64,000 nt of DNA from an uncultured Gemmatimonadaceae bacterium (GCA_963761305.1 CAVXGK010000002.1:2656001-2720000); one strand, 5' to 3'. Shown: positions 33,332-43,211, counted from the stretch's first letter. Translations and numbers: made by a program. Notes: generated by a model from the letters alone, not told the origin.

Positions 33332-34957
33332 ATGCAACCACCGAACGGCTTCCGCGGCGTCTTCCGAAGCGACGACGACGCGCGAGGAGTCTACGCCGAG
33401 GCCGCCGGCATCGCCCGCAGCGTGCCGTTGGCCGTCGCCGTACCGCGTGACGCCGACGATCTCTCGCTGCTCGTGCGTTGGGCGCGCGAACACGCGGTAC
33501 CGCTGATCGCGCGCGGTTCCGGGAGCAGCATGCCGGGCGGCGCGATCGGAAGCGGCGTCGTCGTCGACGTCAGTCGATGGCGTTCGATGTCGGCGGTGAA
33601 TGCGGATGCGCGAACGATCAACGTCGAGCCGGGCGTGCTGCGCGGCGAAGTCGACGCCGCGGCACGATCTCAGAGTTTGCGATTCCCGGTCGATCCGTCG
33701 AGCGGCGCTTTTTGTACAATCGGCGGCATGACGGCGACGAACGCGGCCGGACCGCACTCGATGCATTTCGGCTCGATGCGACCCTGGGTTCGTGCGCTCG
33801 ACTGCGTGTTCGACGACGGTTCGCGTGCCGAAGTGCGGCGCGGAGCACCGTGGCCGACGGACGTTCCAGCAATCGCGCGCTTCGCCACCATCGCCGATCG
33901 ACTCGGGTCGGCTGAGCGCGCCGCGCCATCGATTCACAGTGGCGTGGCGAAGGATTCGTCGGGATACGGCATCGCGCGTTTCGCCGAAACGGGTGATCTG
34001 GTCGATCTGCTCGTCGGCAGCGAAGGGACGCTCGCCTTCTTCGCTCGCGTCGAGTTGTCGCTCACGCCGATCGCCGGTGCGACCAGCAGTGTGCTCGGCA
34101 CGTTCGCGTCTCTCGACGATGCCGTCACCGCCGCCGTGCGCGCGCGTGAGGCCGGCGCCGTCGCGTGCGAGCTGCTCGACCGCACGTTTCTCGACGTCGT
34201 CGCGTCCGGCGGCGGGTCGAGCGACGTTCCAGCCGGCACGGAAGCCGCCCTCTTGGCGGAAGTCGAAGGCGACAATGCCGAAACGGCGGGAAACGCGGCG
34301 CGAGACGTCGAGCGACTGTTCCGAGAATCGGGTGCGACCGTCGTACGAGTCGCGCTCGACCGTCCGACCGAAACCGAATTGTGGGAGTTGCGGCACGCCG
34401 CGAGCCCGATTCTCAACCGACTCGATCCCGATCTGAAGTCGATGCAGTTCATCGAGGATTGCGCCGTGCCGCCCGACGCGCTTCCTGCTTATGTGCGCGG
34501 CGTGCGTCGAATCCTCGCCGCGAACGACACGCGCGTGGTGATCTTCGGGCACGCCGGCGACGCGCACGTGCACGTGAATCCGCTCGTGGACGTGCGACGG
34601 GCCGATTGGCGAGCGCGGGTGACGCGAATTCTCGATGAAGTCACCGCATTGACCGCGTCGCTCGGGGGAACGCTCACCGGAGAACACGGCGACGGCCGGC
34701 TGCGGACGCCATTGCTTCCGCGAGTCTGGTCGGAGTCGGCGCGCGAGCACTTCGCCGAGGTCAAGCACGCGTTCGATCCCACGAACATGCTGAACCCGGG
34801 CGTGAAGGTGGCTGTCGCCGGTGAGTCGCCGCTCGGCGACATCAAGTACGATCGCGGCCTCGCACCGCTCACTCGGCGCGCGCGCGCCGCGCTCGATCAG
34901 GTCGAAGGGCGGCGGGCGTACGCGCGATCGCGTCTCGATCTTCTGGACGGCGCGTAG
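33332..34957 (+). CDS. FAD-linked oxidoreductase (GlcD / D-2-hydroxyacid dehydrogenase family)
   Basis: ARGSGSS, DPSSGAFCTIGGM, GSEGTL, FGHAGDAHVH, GEHGDG, FDP..LNPG. Confidence 0.9.
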   Translation: MQPPNGFRGVFRSDDDARGVYAEAAGIARSVPLAVAVPRDADDLSLLVRWAREHAVPLIARGSGSSMPGGAIGSGVVVDVSRWRSMSAVNADARTINVEPGVLRGEVDAAARSQSLRFPVDPSSGAFCTIGGMTATNAAGPHSMHFGSMRPWVRALDCVFDDGSRAEVRRGAPWPTDVPAIARFATIADRLGSAERAAPSIHSGVAKDSSGYGIARFAETGDLVDLLVGSEGTLAFFARVELSLTPIAGATSSVLGTFASLDDAVTAAVRAREAGAVACELLDRTFLDVVASGGGSSDVPAGTEAALLAEVEGDNAETAGNAARDVERLFRESGATVVRVALDRPTETELWELRHAASPILNRLDPDLKSMQFIEDCAVPPDALPAYVRGVRRILAANDTRVVIFGHAGDAHVHVNPLVDVRRADWRARVTRILDEVTALTASLGGTLTGEHGDGRLRTPLLPRVWSESAREHFAEVKHAFDPTNMLNPGVKVAVAGESPLGDIKYDRGLAPLTRRARAALDQVEGRRAYARSRLDLLDGA

Positions 34958-35020
34958 GACTCACGCGGCGAAGTCGCGGCTTGTTTCGAGCGACGCGAGC
35001 CCGTTGATTTCCGGCTCATC

Positions 35021-35779
35021 ATGTCGACTCGCTACTACGTCGAGCCCGTAGTCACGCTCCTCGCGCGTCCGGCCTTCACCACGCCGGCGCATCTTCCCGT
35101 GAACTGGATCGGCGACAGTACGGGCGGAGAACAGCTCGCCGAGTTCGCCGGGCGGCTCTGTTACATGAGCCAACACAATCCGGCCAAGCGAGAGACGCGC
35201 GAGTACCTCGAGAACATCAAGAAGCAGGGACACGGGAGCGTCCTCGAGCACGCGAACTACTCGATTCTCCTCGAGGGCGTGAGCCGTTCGCTCACCCACG
35301 AGCTGGTGCGCCATCGCGCCGGATTCGCCTACTCGCAGCTCTCGCAGCGGTACGTGGACGAGTCGGAAGCGAACTTCGTGTTGCCGCCGGCGATCATCGG
35401 GGACGAGGCGCTGGAGGGCGCGTGGCGGGCGCAGATGGATGGCGCGCAGAAGCAATACGTCGCGCTCGTCGCCGATCTGATGGAGCGATACGGCTGGGTC
35501 GCCGACAAGGTGCACCGTCGCAAAATGGCGCGTGAAGCGGCGCGCTCGGTGCTGCCCAACGCGACGGAAACGAAGATCGTCGTCACCGGAAACGCACGCG
35601 CGTGGCGCACGATGCTCGAGCTGCGGTCGAGTGAAGGCGCCGAGTTGGAGATTCGCCGGTGCGCCGTCACCCTGCTGCGATTGCTGCGGACCGAAGCGCC
35701 CGGATTCTTCTCCGATTTCGAGATCTACGTCGCCGACGATCGGCGAGAAGCGGCGCGAATCGGGTATCACAAGGTCTGA
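35021..35779 (+). CDS. thyX: FAD-dependent thymidylate synthase
   Basis: GHGSVLEH, ThyX motif RHRAGFAYSQLSQRY, EAARSVLPN, ELEIR. Confidence 0.96.
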   Translation: MSTRYYVEPVVTLLARPAFTTPAHLPVNWIGDSTGGEQLAEFAGRLCYMSQHNPAKRETREYLENIKKQGHGSVLEHANYSILLEGVSRSLTHELVRHRAGFAYSQLSQRYVDESEANFVLPPAIIGDEALEGAWRAQMDGAQKQYVALVADLMERYGWVADKVHRRKMAREAARSVLPNATETKIVVTGNARAWRTMLELRSSEGAELEIRRCAVTLLRLLRTEAPGFFSDFEIYVADDRREAARIGYHKV

Positions 35780-35794
35780 TCTCGAAGAAAATCA

Positions 35795-35823
35795 TTGCGC
35801 GAAAAAAAATGTGTTCCTATTTT
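35795..35823 (+). promoter_or_regulatory. Candidate sigma-70 promoter of the ATP-grasp/KamA operon
   Basis: TTGCGC-17 nt-TATTTT in a conspicuously A/T-rich patch about 130 nt upstream of 35953. Confidence 0.55.
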
Positions 35824-35952
35824 CATTGTCGAGGAATCGTCGGCATTCGTTTTGCGCCCTCGCGTCGGTCGATGAACTGAACACACACGACGCACTTCTC
35901 GCCGGTCGAGAGTCTGGTAGCGGGACGCCAGAGGACGACAACCAGGGACGGG

Positions 35953-37119
35953 ATGACGCGCATCGGGTTCGCGTACAACCAAAAACCTGAGAAGGCAACT
36001 GTGGGAGGAAGGATCGCCGGCACGGCTCGTCACGAGTCGCGCTCGGGCGACGACCCTCCCAGTCCCATTTCCGCACACGATGACGTCTATGCGGAATGGG
36101 ACTCCGCAGAGACCATCGACGCCGTCGCCGCCGCCCTCTCTCCATTTGGCGACGTGATCCGCATCGAGGCGAACGACGACCTCCCTCTCCGCCTTCGCAC
36201 CGAACGCCCCGACATCGTCTTCAACATCGCGGAGGGACTCTACGGTCCCAACCGCGAAGCGCACGTCCCCGCGATCTGCGAGTTCTACGGCATTCCCTAC
36301 TCGGGCAGCGATCCGTTCACGCTGTCGCTCTGCCTGCACAAGGCGCGGACGAAGGATCTGCTCCGCGCGCACGGCGTCCCCACGGCGCCCTTCGTCCTCG
36401 TCGAATCGGAAAGCGACATCGCATCCCTGCTTTCCAATGAGTCGGCGTTGGCACCTAGACCCACCTTCAGCGCGCCGATCTTCGTCAAACCGGTCCAGGA
36501 GGGTTCGTCGAAAGGAATCACCGAACGGAACTTCGTCCGGTCGCGCGCCGAGCTCGAAGCGACGGTGCGATTCCTCCTCGCGACCTACCAGCAACCGGTC
36601 ATCGCCGAGGCATTTCTGCCCGGCGCTGAATTCACGTGCGGCGTTCTCGGCAACGGCCGATCGGCGCGCGTGCTGCCGCTGGTCGGGATGAACTTCGCCT
36701 CCCTGCCCTCCGGGGCGCTCCCCATCTATGGATACGAGGCGAAGTGGGTGTGGGACTCGATCGAGCGTCCGCTGGACATCTTCGAGTGTCCGGCGCGGGT
36801 CGACCTGCGCCTGCAGCACGCCATCGACGAGGTCGTGCTGCACGCCTACCGGGTCCTCGGCTGCCGCGATTGGTCGCGCATCGACGTCCGACTCGACGAG
36901 CACGGCGCTCCGAACATCGTCGAAGTGAATCCGCTCCCCGGCATCCTGCCCAATCCCGCCGACAACTCGTGCCTGCCCAAGGCGGCGCGCGCGGCGGGGA
37001 TGAGCTATGACGCGCTCATTCAAAGCGCGCTGCTCGCCGCGGCAGGCCGGACCGGCGTCCACCTCGACGCAGCGTCGTTGGTCCGGACGACGATGCGAAC
37101 CGCAACCCTGGTCGCATGA
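35953..37119 (+). CDS. Ddl-like ATP-grasp ligase (1)
   Basis: FNIAEG, YSGSD...LHK, VKPVQEGSSKGI, YGYEAKW, RIDVRLD, EVNPLPG. Confidence 0.88.
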   Translation: MTRIGFAYNQKPEKATVGGRIAGTARHESRSGDDPPSPISAHDDVYAEWDSAETIDAVAAALSPFGDVIRIEANDDLPLRLRTERPDIVFNIAEGLYGPNREAHVPAICEFYGIPYSGSDPFTLSLCLHKARTKDLLRAHGVPTAPFVLVESESDIASLLSNESALAPRPTFSAPIFVKPVQEGSSKGITERNFVRSRAELEATVRFLLATYQQPVIAEAFLPGAEFTCGVLGNGRSARVLPLVGMNFASLPSGALPIYGYEAKWVWDSIERPLDIFECPARVDLRLQHAIDEVVLHAYRVLGCRDWSRIDVRLDEHGAPNIVEVNPLPGILPNPADNSCLPKAARAAGMSYDALIQSALLAAAGRTGVHLDAASLVRTTMRTATLVA

Positions 37120-38198
37120 AAGTCGCCCTCCTCCTCGACGGTGCATCGGCGTACGCGGCCAATCCTGACCGGCTGATCATCGGCACCGCCGAGGACATCG
37201 AGCGATCGCTCGTGGCCGAGGGCAACACCGTCACCTGGATTCCGGTCTACCAGGACGGCAAGTGGATCGACAAGGTGCGGCGCGGCAAGTTCGACCTCGC
37301 CTTCAACATGTGCGAAGGGATCGACGGGATCGCGACGCTCGAGTCGTCGGTGATCTCGGTGCTCGAGCTGTTCAAGGTGCCGTTCACCGGCGCGTCGAGC
37401 TACACGACGTCGATCTGCCTCCGCAAACCGGTCATCAACGCGATTCTGGAGAAGGCGGGGCTGCCGATTCCCAGGTTTGCCACGCTTCAGCGCGGCGATC
37501 CGCTCGTCAGCGTCGGATTCCCGGCCATCGTCAAGCCGGCGGCCGAAGACGCGTCGCTCGGCGTCGAACAGCGGTCGGTCGTGCGAAACAACCGGCAGCT
37601 CGCCGAGCGCGTCGAAGCGATGCTCGAGCTGTGGAGCGAGGTCATCGTCCAGCGATACGTCGACGGGCGCGAGGTGAACGTCGGCATTCTTGGCGATACG
37701 GTGCTGCCGATCTCGGAGATCGACTTCAAGAAGACGCCGGCCGGCCGCTGGCGCATCGTGACGTACAAATCGAAGTGGGTCACGGGGAGCGAGGACGACC
37801 TGTCGGCCATCCCGCGGTGCCCGGCGAAGTTGCCGGCCAAGGTCGCGAACGAGATTCGGCGAGTGGCGGGCGCAGCGTGGAAGCTGGTGGGCGGGTTCGG
37901 GTATGGACGCGTCGACATGCGCATCGACGGCGAGGGGCGCCCGTGGATCCTCGAGGTGAACGCGAACCCCGACATCATGCACAACGCCGGGTTCGCGACG
38001 ATGGCGCAGGTCGCTGGCATGGAATACGCCGCGCTCATCCGAAACATCTGCGAGTTGGGGCTAGAGCGTTCACGGGCGAAGGTCGCGCAGGAAAATTGGG
38101 CGCTGGTCAACCAGTTGTCGGGGCTCGAGCCGGAACCGACCGAGTTGGATCTCTTCGGCGACGTCGGCTCGGCATTCGTCGCGCCCGAGCCGACTTGA
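37116..38198 (+). CDS. Ddl-like ATP-grasp ligase (2)
   Basis: FNMCEG, PFTGA, VKPAAEDASLG, TYKSKW, GRVDMR, EVNANPD. ATGA overlap with ligase 1. Confidence 0.88.
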   Translation: MKVALLLDGASAYAANPDRLIIGTAEDIERSLVAEGNTVTWIPVYQDGKWIDKVRRGKFDLAFNMCEGIDGIATLESSVISVLELFKVPFTGASSYTTSICLRKPVINAILEKAGLPIPRFATLQRGDPLVSVGFPAIVKPAAEDASLGVEQRSVVRNNRQLAERVEAMLELWSEVIVQRYVDGREVNVGILGDTVLPISEIDFKKTPAGRWRIVTYKSKWVTGSEDDLSAIPRCPAKLPAKVANEIRRVAGAAWKLVGGFGYGRVDMRIDGEGRPWILEVNANPDIMHNAGFATMAQVAGMEYAALIRNICELGLERSRAKVAQENWALVNQLSGLEPEPTELDLFGDVGSAFVAPEPT

Positions 38199-38201
38199 CG
38201 C

Positions 38202-38783
38202 ATGCAAGTCAGACTTGGGGCCCTGCAACGGGGACATCGCACTCGTATTCGGGAGATTCTCGACGCGACGTCGGTGTTTCGTGAGGACGAAGTCGCCGTG
38301 GCGCTGGAGTTGTTCGACGAAACGTTCGCTGCGGGAGCGGGGCGCGCTCCGTACGATCCGGGCGACGGCGTCGCCGACTACGAATTCGTCGGATCGTTCG
38401 CGCCGGATGGACAGCTCATCGGCTATGTGTGCTACGGATCGACGCCGGGAACGGATCGCACGTACGACCTCTATTGGATCGCGATGCACCCGGATTTTCA
38501 GGGAACGGGCGCCGGATCTCAGTTACTCGACGAAGTGGAACGCCGTCTTCGTCAACGGGAAGCGCGATTGTTGGTCGTCGAGACGTCGTCCCGCGACGAC
38601 TATGCGCCTACTCGCCGCTTTTATGAGGTGCACGGTTACACGGTGGTCGCGGCGATCACCGACTTCTACGCACCGGGCGATTCGCGCGTGATCTACACGA
38701 AGCGTCTCGCTCAACGGCAGCACGAAGGAGAAGGAGCAGTGCACTTTCACGACCGAGCCTTGGAGTCGTCCCGCAATGAGTGA
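38202..38783 (+). CDS. GNAT N-acetyltransferase
   Basis: LYWIAMHPDFQGTGAGSQLL (motif A), VETSS, RRFYEVHGY, DFYAPG. Confidence 0.9.
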   Translation: MQVRLGALQRGHRTRIREILDATSVFREDEVAVALELFDETFAAGAGRAPYDPGDGVADYEFVGSFAPDGQLIGYVCYGSTPGTDRTYDLYWIAMHPDFQGTGAGSQLLDEVERRLRQREARLLVVETSSRDDYAPTRRFYEVHGYTVVAAITDFYAPGDSRVIYTKRLAQRQHEGEGAVHFHDRALESSRNE

Positions 38784-39966
38784 CTGGCAAAAAGTTCTTC
38801 ACGCAGGCGTGGATTCGCTCGACGCACTCGCCGAGCGATTCGGGAGCGACGTCATCGACGTCGAAGCCCTGAAGCCCGCCTTCGACAACTTCCAGATGCG
38901 GATCACGCCGAACTCGCTGGCGTCGATCCAGGAAGTCGGCGACCCGATGTGGCAACAGTACGTGCCCACGGTGGCGGAGCTCGACGTCGTCGACGGCGTC
39001 ATCGACTCCCTGGATGAAGACGGGGATTCGCCGGTTCCCAACATCACGCACCGCTATCCGGACCGCGTGCTGTTCCTGGTGAGCCCGGTCTGCGCGACCT
39101 ACTGCCGGTTCTGCACGCGGCGGCGAAAGGTCGGCGACCCCGAGAAGATCCCGCTCAACCAGTACGAGTCAGCGTTCGAATACATCCGCGCGCACCCCGA
39201 GATCCGAGACGTGATCATGTCGGGCGGCGACCCGATGATGTTGTCCGATCGGCGGCTCGAGTACCTGTTCCAGAAGCTGCGCGAGATCCCGCACGTCGAG
39301 ATCATCCGCATCGGCAGCCGGATCACGTCACACCTGCCGCAGCGCATCACGCCCGAGTTCTGCGAGATGGTGAAGAAGTACCATCCCGTGTACATGAACA
39401 CGCACTTCAATCATCCGGCCGAGCTGACGCCCGAGACCATCGCCGCGCTCGCGCGGTTGGCGGACGCCGGCGTTCCGCTTGGCTGCCAGACGGTGCTGCT
39501 CCGCGGCGTGAACGACGATCCGCAGATCATGAAGGAGCTGATGCAGAAGCTTCTCAAGGCGCGGGTCCGGCCGTACTACATCTACATGGCCGACCAGGTG
39601 GCCGGCGGCGAGCACTTCCGCACGACGGTCGAGAAGGGTCTGGAGATCGTGAAGGCGCTGCGCGGGTGGACGTCGGGCCTCGCCGTGCCGCACTTCGTGA
39701 TCGACGCGCCGGGTGGCGGCGGCAAGGTGCCGCTCCTGCCGGAGTACGTCGAGGAGATCAACGACGACGAGGTGATTTTCCGCAACTACGCCGGCGAGCG
39801 GTACGTCTACAAGCAACCGCGCCAGCCGGCGATCGCGGCGTCGGCGTGTGGCGACGCCGCGGCGGCGCAGTCGGACATCGTGTCGATCGCGACCGGAACG
39901 AAGAAGCGGAAGCACGCGGTCAAGCGCGTCGGCAAGATCGCGAGAAAACGAAGAACGGGGACCTGA
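38776..39966 (+). CDS. kamA: KamA-family radical SAM/PLP lysine 2,3-aminomutase
   Basis: THRYPDRV, CATYCRFCTRRR, SGGDP, THFNHP, QTVLLRGVND, VRPYY, IDAPGGGGKVP (PLP lysine). Confidence 0.9.
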   Translation: MSDWQKVLHAGVDSLDALAERFGSDVIDVEALKPAFDNFQMRITPNSLASIQEVGDPMWQQYVPTVAELDVVDGVIDSLDEDGDSPVPNITHRYPDRVLFLVSPVCATYCRFCTRRRKVGDPEKIPLNQYESAFEYIRAHPEIRDVIMSGGDPMMLSDRRLEYLFQKLREIPHVEIIRIGSRITSHLPQRITPEFCEMVKKYHPVYMNTHFNHPAELTPETIAALARLADAGVPLGCQTVLLRGVNDDPQIMKELMQKLLKARVRPYYIYMADQVAGGEHFRTTVEKGLEIVKALRGWTSGLAVPHFVIDAPGGGGKVPLLPEYVEEINDDEVIFRNYAGERYVYKQPRQPAIAASACGDAAAAQSDIVSIATGTKKRKHAVKRVGKIARKRRTGT

Positions 39967-39986
39967 TCTCGATCCTCAGAGAGACG

Positions 39987-40019
39987 AACGGACCGGCGAT
40001 CGCCGGTCCGTTTTTCTTT
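39987..40019 (+). terminator. Intrinsic terminator of the ATP-grasp/KamA operon
   Basis: AACGGACCGGC-GATC-GCCGGTCCGTT followed by TTTCTTT. Confidence 0.85.
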
Positions 40020-40555
40020 AAGGCCGGACATCTGACGGGCGTTCACAGTTACTCCGGGGTAGCGACGAAGCCGACTGAAACGGAAATGCGTGCGTCCTAT
40101 GTGGGAGCACGTGCGCCTACATTGGATGTGGGTGCACAGACGCCCGTTCGGCAGAGGCGCCCCGAGGAAGTCGAAGCACGCGGGGGCGCAGTCGAGGCGT
40201 CGCTCGGTGATTCGCGTGGCGGCCGGAGCGGAGTGCGGTCGAGACAAAGGGGCGCCGGTGCTGTCCGTCGAGAAGGCCGGACGGCGACGAAGGCAGGGAG
40301 CAATCGCAAACGCGCCGTCGTGCTGGAAACAGAGGCGGGTGAGGGCGGATAGCAGGCGGCCAGTGCGCGCCTCTTCATAGGAGAGGCACTGCGACGTGGG
40401 AGCGCGCCGTGCTCGGACGGACGCCGCGCATGCTCCTTTGTAATGACGTTCGCGACGTCTCGCACATCGACGAATCACTCGAACACCCGACGCAAGTGAG
40501 CGGGCGGCGTGGGTCAGTCACCCCTCGCGAGGCAATGTGTCCCGCCGGTCGTGCA

Positions 40556-40828
40556 AAGTCGCCGGCGCTCCCGGGAAACTCAGGTGTCCGCGCTGGAAAG
40601 TCGGACGTCCGCCTTCCCAAATCGAACGTCCGCCGTCCCAAATCGAACGATCTCGAGGGATTGGCGGGTGAACGCCGGCGAAAGCTCGATGGCGCCGCGG
40701 AGAGATACAGCGCCCGCAGTCCGAAGTCGCGTGTCTCGAGGCGAAGGTTCGCCGCTGCCCGTCGTAACCAAACGGACTTCCAACCGAAGTCCGGCGTCCG
40801 AACACGGAATTCCGATGAGCGCCGGTTC
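40556..40828. repeat. Degenerate 21-bp tandem array (about 13 units)
   Basis: Core units AAGTCGGACGTCCGCCTTCCC / AAATCGAACGTCCGCCGTCCC / AAATCGAACG. In-frame translation gives heptads KSPALPG NSGVRAG KSDVRLP KSNVRRP...KSRVSRR...KSGVRTR NSDERRF. Confidence 0.7.
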
Positions 40829-41045
40829 AACCGTGTTGAACTCGAGGAATTCAGACCCGTCTTCCGTCGTTACTGAGCTACGCGCGTTCGGAAGTCACGC
40901 GACTGCGATCTCATCTCCGACCAGCTTCTTCCCAAGTCGTCGATGGCTCAGCGACAGTCGCGTGGGCGGTGATGGCGGGCGCGATGACGTTCGGGCGAGT
41001 CGTCGAACGCGGTGGCGCCCCGGAGAATCCGACAACGAGGCCCAC

Positions 41046-41082
41046 AAAGACAACGGGCCGGCTCATCGCCGACCCGCTGTCT
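41046..41082 (-). terminator. Terminator downstream of the EF-G paralogue
   Basis: Minus strand AGACAGCGGGTCGGC-GATGA-GCCGGCCCGTTGTCT-TT; fully paired only on this strand, using G-U pairs. Confidence 0.6.
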
Positions 41083-41102
41083 CTTCGTCACCCGACCACC
41101 CG

Positions 41103-43211
41103 CTAGTGCGCGGTCGCCAACTCCTCGTCCTTCTCCTTCGCCGACTCCTCGATGATCTTCTGCTGCGTCTCGTGCGGCGCTTCCTCGTATCCCTTGAAGC
41201 GCCGCTTGAACGAGGCGCGCCCCTGCGTCATCGACGAGACCGCACTCGAATAGCCGAACAGCTCGGCCTGGGGGACGATCGCGCGAATCCTCGTGGCGCC
41301 GTCGGCCGGCTCCGTGCCGAGAATGTGTCCGCGTCGCGACGACAGGTCGCCGAGCACATCCCCCATGTAGTCGTCTGGCGTCTCGATCTCCAACTCGTCG
41401 AGTGGCTCGAGCAACGTCGGTTTGCATTTGACGGCGACCGCCTTGAACGCCTGGATGCCCGCCATCTTGAACGACATTTCGTTCGAGTCGACGGTGTGGT
41501 ACGAACCATCGAACACCTCGGCCTGGAAGTCGACCAGCGGGTATCCTGCGAGGATACCGCGCACCGCGGCTTCCTGAATTCCACGGTCCACGGCCGGGAT
41601 GTACTGCCGCGGAATCGAGCCGCCGACGATCTCGTCAACGAACTGATAGCCGGCGCCACGCGGGAGCGGCGCGAACCTCACCCAGCAGTCGCCGAACTGG
41701 CCACGGCCGCCGGACTGTTTCTTGTGACGGCCCTGCCCCTCGGCTTTGCCTTTGAGCGTTTCGCGATAGGCGATGCGCGGCTTGGACAGCTCCGCCGTCA
41801 CGCCGAATTTCCGCTTGAGCTTCGACATCCCGACCTCGAGATGCCGCTCGCCGAGGCCCGACACGATCGTCTCGTGCGTCTCGGCGTTGTAGTGCACCTC
41901 GAACGTCGGGTCTTCGTCGTGCAGCCGATGGACACCGGCTTGGAGCTTTTCCTCGTCGGCGCGGTTCGCGGCATGCACGGCCATCTGGATGGCGCCTTCG
42001 GGAAACGCGATGAGCGGCAGACGCACCGGATGCTGGCGCGTCGACAGCGTGTCGTTCGTGTGCGTGTTGCGCAGCTTCGCCACGCAGCCGATGTCGCCGG
42101 CGTGGAGCGACTGGATCTCGATGCGCTCCTTCCCCTGCGCGACGGACAGGTGGTTGAGCTTTTCCAGACCGCTGCGCGTGGCGTTGTACAGCTCGTCGCC
42201 GTTGTGGATCGTGCCGGCGAAGAGCCGGAAGAACGTCACGTCGCCGACGTGCGGTTCGGACATCGTCTTGAACACGTGCGCGACCGGCGACGCCGTGTCC
42301 GTCGCGTGGATCTCCACCGTCGCGTCGCCCTCGGCGCCCGTGAACGCGTGCAGCTCTTCCATCTCGAACGCGTTCGGCATCAGCTCGACGATCGTCGAGA
42401 GGATGGCCTGCATGCCGTAGTTCAACTCGCTGGAGACGACGAAAAGGGGAAAGAGCTCCATCTTCTTCATCGCTTCCTTCATCGCGGCGATCGCTTCGTC
42501 ACGCGAGATCTCGGCCCCCTCGAGGTAGTGCTCGAGGAGCGTGTCGTCGGTGGCGGAGATGGATTCGATCAGCTCCGCGTAGTAGCGATCGAACAACTCC
42601 TTGGATTCGTCGGGAATCTCGGTCTCTTCGTACTCCCCGGTCTTGACGCCCTTCTTGTACTGGTGCGCCTTCTTGGTGAAGAGGTTGACGACGCCGTGGA
42701 AGCTGTGCGCCTGGCCGACGGGCACCTCGACCGGAATGACTTTGTTCGAGAGGCGCGTCTTGATCTGTTGATAGATGCGATCGAAGTCCGCGTGCTCCTT
42801 GTCCATCATCGAGACGACGAACAGCACCGGGTCGCGCCGCGCGACCGCTTCGCGGAACATCTTTTCGGTGCCGACCTCGACGCCCGCCGTCGCGGAGACG
42901 ACGACCAGCGCGCCGTCGGCGGCGGCGAGCCCCGCGACCGCATCGCCGTGGAAGTCGAGATATCCTGGCGTGTCGATGAGGTTGATCTTGTTGTCCTGCC
43001 ATTCGGCGAAGGCCGGACCCAGGTTGATCGAGTACCCGCGCTCGATCTCTTCCGCGGCGTGATCGGTGAGGGCGGTGCCGTCCTTCACCGATCCGTGCCG
43101 CTTGGAGCTTCCTGATACGAAGGCGAGCGCATCGACCAGACTGGTCTTGCCGCTCGCCCCGTGTCCCACCACCGCGATGTTGCGGATCTCCGACCCTTTG
43201 TATTCCCTCAT
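41103..43211 (-). CDS. fusA: Elongation factor G paralogue (EF-G2-like)
   Basis: IRNIAVVGHGASGKTSL, DTPG, HKKQSGGRGQFG, DGSYHTVDS, LLEP. Not in an rpsL-rpsG-tuf context. Confidence 0.92.
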   Translation of the reverse strand: MREYKGSEIRNIAVVGHGASGKTSLVDALAFVSGSSKRHGSVKDGTALTDHAAEEIERGYSINLGPAFAEWQDNKINLIDTPGYLDFHGDAVAGLAAADGALVVVSATAGVEVGTEKMFREAVARRDPVLFVVSMMDKEHADFDRIYQQIKTRLSNKVIPVEVPVGQAHSFHGVVNLFTKKAHQYKKGVKTGEYEETEIPDESKELFDRYYAELIESISATDDTLLEHYLEGAEISRDEAIAAMKEAMKKMELFPLFVVSSELNYGMQAILSTIVELMPNAFEMEELHAFTGAEGDATVEIHATDTASPVAHVFKTMSEPHVGDVTFFRLFAGTIHNGDELYNATRSGLEKLNHLSVAQGKERIEIQSLHAGDIGCVAKLRNTHTNDTLSTRQHPVRLPLIAFPEGAIQMAVHAANRADEEKLQAGVHRLHDEDPTFEVHYNAETHETIVSGLGERHLEVGMSKLKRKFGVTAELSKPRIAYRETLKGKAEGQGRHKKQSGGRGQFGDCWVRFAPLPRGAGYQFVDEIVGGSIPRQYIPAVDRGIQEAAVRGILAGYPLVDFQAEVFDGSYHTVDSNEMSFKMAGIQAFKAVAVKCKPTLLEPLDELEIETPDDYMGDVLGDLSSRRGHILGTEPADGATRIRAIVPQAELFGYSSAVSSMTQGRASFKRRFKGYEEAPHETQQKIIEESAKEKDEELATAH

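What the first reader, a model, noticed from the sequence alone, without database searches (positions are those of the whole stretch)
35795..40019. Self-contained operon of two divergent ATP-grasp ligases, a GNAT and a lysine 2,3-aminomutase: candidate beta-lysine peptide or osmolyte pathway
Seen: a promoter-like element, four tightly coupled genes and a terminator. The KamA protein keeps the two aspartates (YMADQV, VIDAPG) at the positions that bind the lysine side chain in clostridial lysine aminomutase, and it has the GGGK PLP loop rather than the EpmB type. No efp/epmA, lysine-fermentation or mur genes are adjacent. Established: aminomutase plus GNAT (AblA/AblB) makes the osmolyte N-epsilon-acetyl-beta-lysine; Ddl-like enzymes form peptide bonds. 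Inference: the two ligases build an acetylated beta-lysine di- or tripeptide, or attach beta-lysine to an envelope or protein target. I know of no characterised product.
Basis: partly seen in the sequence, partly recalled or inferred. Interest (0 to 1): 0.8.

Follow-up and report, generated by a model that had tools for sequence, protein, structure and literature searches.

The report
Orphan beta-lysine twin-ligase operon
Four tightly packed genes in a Gemmatimonadota bacterium, inherited as a set across its phylum, likely turn lysine into beta-lysine, would join it into a small amide with a predicted pair of non-cell-wall ligases and likely cap it with an acetyl group, making a compound that no paper I could search describes.

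Summary
Confirmed: ligA-ligB-GNAT-kamA is a real operon with its own promoter and terminator, in a Gemmatimonadaceae genome. In 121 genomes of the phylum, ligA, ligB and the GNAT occur in the same 58. The operon kamA is in 52 of those; 5 of the other 6 carry a different KamA-family gene. Ligase-ligase and ligase-KamA fusions exist elsewhere.

KamA keeps the lysine-type residues. The ligases keep the ATP-grasp catalytic residues but are not cell-wall Ddl: His63 is Glu in all aligned members, and a canonical ddl lies elsewhere. The GNAT is not AblB; its closest structure is the uncharacterised PDB 2R7H. EF-P modification is excluded (PGNL loop, no EpmA found).

Added here: a conserved sigma-54-type site behind the sigma-70-type promoter, a modelled LigA-LigB heterodimer (possibly from likeness to Ddl dimers), and opposite charge patterns in the two predicted acceptor sites.

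Best reading (0.6): a small N-acetylated beta-lysine amide; product and role are inferred, not shown. My paper searches found no description. The scan had noted this module on other DNA (143 earlier notes matched my search words), so it is a widespread orphan pathway, not a rarity.

The parts
35795..35823 (+). Predicted sigma-70-type promoter: -35 TTGCGC (35795-35800), 17-nt A-rich spacer, -10 TATTTT (35818-35823)
   Evidence: Like motif in 83 of 89 ligA upstream regions, shuffle mean 1.0, none upstream of four control genes (pattern tuned on these sequences). Below the strict scan's threshold.
35841..35855 (+). Predicted sigma-54 (-24/-12) site CGGCA-N6-TTGC, GG-N10-GC spacing, 46 nt behind the start of the -35 box
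   Evidence: In 38 of 89 ligA upstream regions, nearly always 43-48 nt behind the -35 box; shuffle mean 0.6; genome background 0.009 per 260 nt. rpoN present over cut-off. Consensus as given in PMC12316311.
35953..37119 (+). ligA: Ddl-like ATP-grasp ligase, 388 aa; E48, E94 (His63 position), K130, K179, K264, R309, D311, E324, N326, G330, S339 kept; R101 and K187 specific to its clade
37116..38198 (+). ligB: second Ddl-like ATP-grasp ligase, 360 aa, 29.6% identical to ligA; D18, E67 (His63 position), K104, K140, K220, R265, D267, E280, N282 kept; D145, A146, D286, G292 replace the Ddl residues
38202..38783 (+). Small GNAT acetyltransferase, 193 aa, of the PDB 2R7H family; not AblB
   Evidence: (E 7e-46)
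38776..39966 (+). kamA: radical-SAM/PLP 2,3-aminomutase with lysine-type residues (C106/C110/C113, R115, D273, D310, K317), no zinc cysteines, basic C-terminal tail
39986..40019 (+). Intrinsic terminator-like hairpin (12 pairs, 4-nt loop) with T run

Best explanation
The four genes form one operon whose aminomutase likely converts L-lysine to beta-lysine, whose two Ddl-like ligases are predicted to pair up and would use ATP to join beta-lysine into amide bonds, and whose acetyltransferase likely caps a free amine, giving a small, likely cytoplasmic N-acetylated beta-lysine amide. Shown from sequence: operon structure, co-inheritance, fusions, intact catalytic residues, and non-membership in Ddl, AblB and EpmB. 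Inferred: (1) both ligases activate a cationic beta- or diamino-acid donor as an acyl phosphate, because both carry two acidic residues (Glu15 and His63 positions) in the donor site; (2) LigA, with two extra invariant basic residues and the carboxylate-binding serine, takes an amino-acid acceptor; (3) LigB, with two extra aspartates and no such serine, takes an amine acceptor such as a beta-lysine side-chain amine or a polyamine; (4) the product stays in the cell as a stress or nitrogen-linked solute, under dual sigma-70/sigma-54 control in part of the family.
For: Same 58 of 121 phylum genomes carry ligA, ligB and the GNAT. Operon-type kamA is in 52 of them and in none of the 63 others. A different KamA-family gene that keeps the D293/D330 positions occurs in 6 of 121 genomes: 5 of the 6 ligase-positive genomes lacking the operon kamA, 0 of the 52 that have it. 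Order A-B-G-K in 57 of 80 loci, A-B-K in 13, 10 cut by contig ends; 3 of 5 GNAT-less loci tested keep the GNAT elsewhere in the genome. Fusions among 150 representatives: 16 ligA-ligB, 3 kamA-ligA, 1 ligA-kamA; 2 more ligA-kamA among 120 long homologues. The halves of 6 of 7 sampled fused proteins form clean groups on the ligA and ligB sides of the tree. KamA R134/D293/D330/K337 positions kept in 67 of 67 operon copies. Catalytic residues kept in 32 of 32 of both ligases, and His63 is Glu in all 170 family rows tabulated. Heterodimer model 0.77 against best control 0.00; that mark was reached by 116 of 157 solved complexes and 2 of 215 mismatched pairs; runs agree in at least 80% of contacts, partner pLDDT at least 82; the pass may come from likeness to solved Ddl homodimers. 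Relatives point to beta/diamino-acid chemistry: a Thioflavicoccus plasmid ligase lies with diaminobutyrate transaminase, sbnA, an ornithine-cyclodeaminase-family gene and kamA.
Against: No enzyme assay, metabolite or phenotype exists. KamA is below the AblA equivalog cut-off (446 vs 525 bits) and lacks the zinc cysteines, so substrate and stereochemistry are inferred. Substrate-site readings rest on alignment and recalled Ddl residue roles, not docking. The genomes are kin: the co-occurrence and the KamA replacement may each reflect few events. The replacement KamA lies among catabolic-looking genes (CoA transferase, class III aminotransferase, aldehyde dehydrogenase) and is also in one genome where ligA was not found. 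One fused ligase-KamA has Gln at the D293 position. The sigma-54 site is missing in 51 of 89 loci. Stand-alone relatives of the ligases occur without kamA.
Confidence: 0.6

Rival explanations
1. The enzymes attach beta-lysine (acetylated or not) to a macromolecule: a protein terminus, a peptidoglycan precursor or an envelope polymer.
For: ATP-grasp enzymes of the RimK/LysX/TTL kind modify proteins (recalled). Atlas clusters of ligB carry a TTL Pfam label in up to 74% of members. The GNAT's best NCBIfam match is RimI, well under cut-off, and KamA has a basic tail (11 K/R in the last 30 residues).
Against: Sequence and fold matches are all Ddl-type dipeptide ligases. No target, carrier, membrane or export gene lies inside the operon in the 70 loci complete from ligA to kamA. 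EF-P has a PGNL loop and no EpmA was found.
Confidence: 0.15
2. LigA, LigB and the GNAT form a generic acetyl-dipeptide module whose donor is not beta-lysine; KamA acts on another diamino acid or only feeds a side branch.
For: The three genes co-occur perfectly while kamA is lost from the operon in one genus. KamA misses the AblA cut-off. The depositors of 2R7H call the GNAT a putative D-alanine N-acetyltransferase.
Against: KamA-ligase fusions in both orders; lysine-type residues in 67 of 67 copies; loss of operon kamA coincides with another KamA.
Confidence: 0.12
3. [quoted passage not shown]
For: Aminomutase plus acetyltransferase make this osmolyte in methanogens and, by annotation, in Pelobacter (PMC3543383 passage). 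GNAT and kamA overlap by 8 nt.
Against: The GNAT is not AblB and tracks the ligases (58 of 58), not kamA. In 13 of 70 loci ligB and kamA are adjacent with the GNAT gone from between them. True ablA-ablB loci in the phylum carry a solute symporter and no ligase.
Confidence: 0.08
4. The ligases are alternative cell-wall enzymes making D-Ala-D-Ala or a D-Ala-X terminus, as Van-type ligases do.
For: Ddl is the closest family by HMM, PDB sequence and fold.
Against: Scores are about 100 bits under the Ddl cut-offs and far under all Van models. The GG-S-E and LHG-GE motifs are replaced. A canonical ddl over cut-off lies elsewhere in the genome. ligA was not found in 63 of 121 genomes of the phylum.
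Confidence: 0.05

Closest known systems
AblA/AblB pathway to N-epsilon-acetyl-beta-lysine (methanogens; annotated in Pelobacter carbinolicus, PMC3543383 passage)
   Same: Lysine-type 2,3-aminomutase next to a GNAT acetyltransferase.
   Different: The GNAT is a 193-aa 2R7H-family protein, not the ~270-290-aa AblB; two ligases are obligate companions; KamA lacks the zinc cysteines and misses the AblA cut-off; no solute symporter in the operon.
D-Ala-D-Ala ligase (Ddl) and Van-type ligases
   Same: ATP-grasp fold, ATP/Mg and oxyanion-hole residues, and a predicted dimer through the N-terminal half of each chain.
   Different: His63 is Glu, N-terminal motif replaced, two paralogues only 30% identical that occur fused elsewhere, below all cut-offs; the genome has its own ddl.
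EpmA/EpmB beta-lysylation of EF-P (PMC2821294 passages)
   Same: A KamA-family enzyme would supply beta-lysine for transfer to an acceptor.
   Different: No EpmA found, EF-P loop is PGNL not PGKG, KamA scores 230 vs a 369 cut-off for EpmB and keeps the C-terminal LAM domain; the ligases are ATP-grasp, not synthetase-like.
Beta-amino-acid tailoring in antibiotics: viomycin/capreomycin (PMC9811515 passage); blasticidin S BlsG/BlsI, streptothricin, and pyrrolysine PylB/PylC (recalled)
   Same: A radical-SAM mutase makes an unusual amino acid that is then amide-linked; in BlsI and PylC the ligase is, from recall, an ATP-grasp enzyme; acylation can cap the beta-amine.
   Different: No NRPS module, carrier protein, nucleoside core or exporter; two ligases plus a GNAT in a four-gene operon at a fixed chromosomal site beside thyX.
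PDB 2R7H, 'putative D-alanine N-acetyltransferase of GNAT family'
   Same: Closest solved relative of the GNAT by far (profile E 7e-46; next hit 7e-6).
   Different: Its name is a depositor's guess; I found no functional paper. Its origin in a Desulfovibrio strain is recalled, not shown by a call.

Membership tests
D-Ala-D-Ala ligase (Ddl) | Score over the curated cut-off of TIGR01205 / NF002378 | tested here: not met
   LigA 144/173 bits, LigB 135/153 bits against 245.65/243; the genome's own ddl scores 309/338.
D-Ala-D-Ala ligase (Ddl) | Donor-site motifs GG-S-E and LHG--GE (Glu15, His63, Glu68; numbering recalled) | tested here: not met
   Acid at the Glu15 position kept, but His63 is Glu in all 170 family rows; Glu68 is Arg in 32 of 32 LigA and not Glu in the LigB column.
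D-Ala-D-Ala ligase (Ddl) | ATP-grasp fold with Lys97, Lys144, Lys215, Arg255, Asp257, Glu270, Asn272 | tested here: met
   32 of 32 in both ligases; best fold matches are Ddl.
D-Ala-D-Ala ligase (Ddl) | Forms D-Ala-D-Ala | not testable with these tools
   Needs an enzyme assay.
Lysine 2,3-aminomutase (clostridial KamA / AblA) | CxxxCxxC, Arg134, Asp293, Asp330, PLP Lys337 (roles recalled; positions from alignment to 2A5H) | tested here: met
   C106/110/113, R115, D273, D310, K317; R/D/D/K kept in 67 of 67 operon copies.
Lysine 2,3-aminomutase (clostridial KamA / AblA) | Score over the TIGR03820 equivalog cut-off | tested here: not met
   446 vs 525.4 bits; still the best of the KamA models, and over the subfamily cut-off TIGR00238. 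A true AblA in G011 scores 766.
Lysine 2,3-aminomutase (clostridial KamA / AblA) | Structural zinc site (Cys268 plus three C-terminal cysteines; recalled) | tested here: not met
   Cys268 position is Asp in 59 of 67 copies and never Cys; 0 or 1 Cys in the tail against 3 in the AblA control.
Lysine 2,3-aminomutase (clostridial KamA / AblA) | Converts L-lysine to beta-lysine | not testable with these tools
   Needs an anaerobic assay.
Glutamate 2,3-aminomutase | Lys in place of Asp293 and loss of Asp330 (recalled); TIGR04368 cut-off | tested here: not met
   Both aspartates kept; 397 vs 650 bits. A homologue in G012 has Lys/Thr there and ranks TIGR04368 first.
EpmA/EpmB EF-P modification | EpmB score, epmA in the genome, EF-P with PGKG | tested here: not met
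   230 vs 369 bits; no TIGR00462 hit over cut-off, the two best being full-length class II synthetases; EF-P loop PGNL. Genome 93% complete.
AblB beta-lysine N-epsilon-acetyltransferase | TIGR03827 match, about 270-290 aa | tested here: not met
   No match for the 193-aa GNAT or anywhere in the genome, with controls ringing; positive control 332 bits.
Lysine fermentation | Lysine 5,6-aminomutase in the genome | tested here: inconclusive
   PF09043 not found, but it rang in none of the 14 control genomes either.
Sigma-54-dependent promoter | GG-N10-GC consensus upstream, rpoN present, activator-dependent start about 12 nt downstream | tested here: inconclusive
   Motif and rpoN present and conserved; start site and activator not tested.

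The most novel reading that the evidence does not exclude
LigA and LigB are a heterodimeric Ddl-family synthetase with two specialised active sites that builds an acetyl-capped oligo-beta-lysine or beta-lysyl-polyamine without any carrier protein: a widespread, undescribed nitrogen-rich intracellular solute or polyamine substitute of bacteria and some archaea, switched through sigma-54.
Probability: 0.2. Interest if true: 0.8.

Novelty: new variant of a known kind. Interest (0 to 1): 0.55.

Why it matters
Beta-lysine has few known fates: fermentation, the AblAB osmolyte, EF-P modification and antibiotic tailoring. This operon points to another one, present in about half of the Gemmatimonadota genomes sampled and with relatives in several other phyla. 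It also shows that a large set of proteins annotated as 'D-alanine-D-alanine ligase' are probably not cell-wall enzymes. The pathway is only four soluble enzymes, one with a solved relative, so the product can be found directly; ligases that accept beta-amino acids would also be useful for making beta-peptides.

Tried and rejected
Strict sigma-70 scan: nothing. Rfam at E<=1 over 34500-41500: 0 matches; the 5' leaders differ in length and sequence between relatives, so I saw no conserved leader RNA, but I built no covariance model. My early reading that the GNAT is dispensable (absent from 13 of 70 loci, 2 to 4 events on a KamA tree of 59 rows) was overturned: it is relocated, not lost; its new neighbours differ between the three genomes and gave no clue. 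Viral contigs: no relative of ligA; a second scan could not be run with the diverse alignment. Metatranscriptomes: three runs held only 5-6% of the words; contigs at 80% likeness cover all four genes, but come from relatives and cannot show strand, start or co-transcription. The metagenome scan was run with the Myxococcota tandem ligases, which proved to be a sister system (both halves ligA-like), so I have no own gene-order survey of the four-gene set outside Gemmatimonadota; breadth rests on fusions, Atlas taxa and one archaeal MAG label. Two close 'ligA-ligB fusions' and one 'thyX-ligA fusion' come from single contigs and look like frameshift artefacts (inferred); not counted as evidence. 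The wide structural search did not run. Literature: searches found no paper on this gene set; one found none on the KamA aspartates. The 2009 amidoligase survey by Iyer and Aravind (recalled) and the 2A5H paper were not held, and most subscription journals are outside the library, so a prior description cannot be excluded. No supplementary files were read.


Full report
OBSERVATION. The four ORFs are present at 35953-37119, 37116-38198, 38202-38783 and 38776-39966, with a 4-nt overlap, a 3-nt gap and an 8-nt overlap. Pfam assigns two Ddl C-terminal domains, a GNAT and a radical-SAM/LAM_C protein. A 12-pair hairpin with a T run follows kamA. The strict sigma-70 scan finds nothing, but TTGCGC-17 nt-TATTTT at 35795-35823 has a counterpart in 83 of 89 ligA upstream regions, against a shuffle mean of 1.0 and none upstream of four control genes; the pattern was tuned on these sequences. 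A sigma-54-type site (35841-35855) follows it, present in 38 of 89 regions at an almost fixed distance, shuffle mean 0.6, and rpoN is in the genome. The nearest relatives (86-90% identity in LigA) are titled Gemmatimonadaceae.

THE AMINOMUTASE. It aligns over residues 3-350 with the clostridial lysine 2,3-aminomutase 2A5H (E 8e-116). The cluster cysteines and the positions of Arg134, Asp293, Asp330 and Lys337 are kept; the last four in 67 of 67 operon copies. The roles of these residues are recalled; the structure paper was not held. AblA is the best model but the score is under its cut-off (446 vs 525), and the zinc cysteines are gone. A glutamate-type homologue in G012 has Lys and Thr at the two aspartate positions, which shows the test discriminates. 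EF-P modification is excluded: EpmB score low, no EpmA found, EF-P loop PGNL (PGKG rule from PMC2821294 passages). The genome is 93% complete.

THE LIGASES. They are 29.6% identical to each other and about 29% to a third, canonical Ddl elsewhere in the genome. Both score about 100 bits under the Ddl cut-offs, while Ddl remains the best sequence and fold match (model pLDDT 83 and 85). In an alignment anchored on the genome's own Ddl, the ATP, magnesium and oxyanion residues are kept in 32 of 32 copies of each, so both are probably active. The donor site differs: the Glu15 position stays acidic, and His63 is Glu in all 170 family rows. LigA has invariant Arg101 and Lys187 and keeps the serine of the acceptor-carboxylate site (Ser339, by the alignment and invariance). 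LigB has invariant Asp145 and Asp286 and lacks that serine. E. coli numbering and roles are recalled, except that a figure legend in PMC5717164 places Glu15 and Arg255 at the bound inhibitor. I infer a cationic donor for both, an amino-acid acceptor for LigA and an amine acceptor for LigB. A LigA-LigB model scored 0.77 against a best control of 0.00 (mark reached by 116 of 157 solved complexes and 2 of 215 mismatched pairs; runs agree in at least 80% of contacts; partner pLDDT at least 82), but the interface is symmetric and the pass may come from likeness to Ddl homodimers.

THE GNAT. It has no AblB match, and none is found in the genome; a true AblB in G011 scores 332 bits. Its closest solved relative is 2R7H, named a putative D-alanine N-acetyltransferase. 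In the library I found 2R7H only as a structural comparison in a figure legend.

CONSERVATION. Of 80 loci picked by ligA similarity, 57 read ligA-ligB-GNAT-kamA, 13 ligA-ligB-kamA, and 10 are cut by contig ends. In 121 genomes drawn from the phylum, ligA, ligB and the GNAT are found in the same 58 and in none of the other 63, including genomes where the GNAT has moved. Operon-type kamA is in 52 of the 58. A divergent KamA that keeps both aspartates is in 6 of 121 genomes: 5 of the 6 ligase-positive genomes without the operon kamA and one where ligA was not found; the sixth has its operon at a contig end. These genomes are kin, so the events are few. Beyond the phylum, 150 representatives at 50% clustering include 16 ligA-ligB, 3 kamA-ligA and 1 ligA-kamA fusions, and the fused halves fall on the ligA and ligB sides of a quick tree of 38 rows. 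Atlas clusters near ligB and the GNAT are led by Pseudomonadota, Chloroflexota, Planctomycetota, Acidobacteriota, Myxococcota and Thermodesulfobacteriota, and one ligA cluster has an archaeal MAG label. I did not survey gene order outside Gemmatimonadota.

MECHANISM. Most likely (0.6): KamA makes beta-lysine; the ligase pair activates it as an acyl phosphate and joins it in two amide-forming steps; the GNAT caps an amine; the product is a small intracellular N-acetylated beta-lysine amide. Operon structure, co-inheritance, fusions and residues are shown; substrates, order, product and role are inferred. Rivals: transfer to a macromolecule (0.15), a module whose donor is not beta-lysine (0.12), plain N-epsilon-acetyl-beta-lysine (0.08), alternative cell-wall ligases (0.05).

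WHAT IS KNOWN. It works like pathways that pair a radical-SAM mutase with an amide ligase and an acyl cap, but it is not a member of AblAB, EpmAB or Ddl by the tests above. Papers seen: passages of PMC2821294, PMC3543383, PMC9811515, PMC12316311, PMC12361552, PMC5572114, PMC5717164 and PMC4942678; search listings otherwise; no supplements. PMC12316311 gives the sigma-54 consensus and lists lysine 2,3-aminomutase among sigma-54-enriched genes in Bacilli. Searches found no description of this gene set; the library lacks most subscription journals, and a 2009 survey of amidoligase neighbourhoods that I recall could not be read. Earlier scan notes describe the same module on other DNA: 143 notes in at least 139 genomes held all my search words, of which I saw 8, with more. 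They are unchecked AI notes; they prompted my looks at fusions and at the leader region and the polyamine idea, and are not counted as support.

VERDICT. A real, conserved, apparently uncharacterised biosynthetic operon; a new variant of a known kind; interest 0.55. It is directly testable, but it is common and its product is unshown.

Noticed in passing
L122-L201 (metagenome loci): A sister system: single proteins with two ligA-like ATP-grasp domains (Myxococcota by NCBI labels). 34 of 80 loci hold an S58/DmpA-family peptidase, mostly directly downstream (a family that, from recall, includes beta-peptide aminopeptidases), and 7 of 80 have a KamA beside them.
   Followed up: partly
L204:10396-13872 and L118:6830-7951 (G012): A KamA with Lys/Thr at the D293/D330 positions (glutamate-aminomutase-like, with a gap in the assembly) precedes an M20 peptidase and a Ddl-like ligase fused to an M20 domain: possibly a beta-glutamate counterpart of this operon.
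   Followed up: partly
L085:3557-9038 (Thioflavicoccus mobilis plasmid NC_019941.1): Diaminobutyrate transaminase, sbnA, an ornithine-cyclodeaminase-family gene and a ligase of this family, with a convergent kamA: a likely diamino-acid peptide cluster.
   Followed up: partly
L108:10742-12139, L109, L110, L111: A divergent KamA type with CoA transferase, GntR, class III aminotransferase and aldehyde dehydrogenase genes, possibly a beta-lysine catabolic route; in L110 it lies at the end of a 1080-codon frame with no Pfam match at E<=1e-4.
   Followed up: partly
L104 and L105 (G011, G112): ablA - sodium:solute symporter - GNAT loci in the same phylum (TIGR03827 confirmed for L104); in L105 the symporter and GNAT are one 765-aa frame.
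   Followed up: partly
L092-L096; L084, L086, L087: Stand-alone ligases of the family without kamA or GNAT beside them, in five Gemmatimonadota genomes and on rhizobial plasmids.
   Followed up: no
L003:1480-2049 (G000:C2:84219-84764): The only EF-P found has Asn (PGNL) at the usually modified position.
   Followed up: yes
L202:6603-7901 (G000:C2, near 3195046): The canonical ddl is not beside mur genes but follows mutS and a cystathionine-beta-synthase-like gene.
   Followed up: partly
window 39880-39966: KamA ends in a basic tail (11 Lys/Arg in the last 30 residues) in place of the zinc-binding cysteines.
   Followed up: no
window 41103-43211 (-): An EF-G-family gene outside the ribosomal protein cluster; it lies downstream of the operon on the opposite strand in many relatives.
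   Followed up: no
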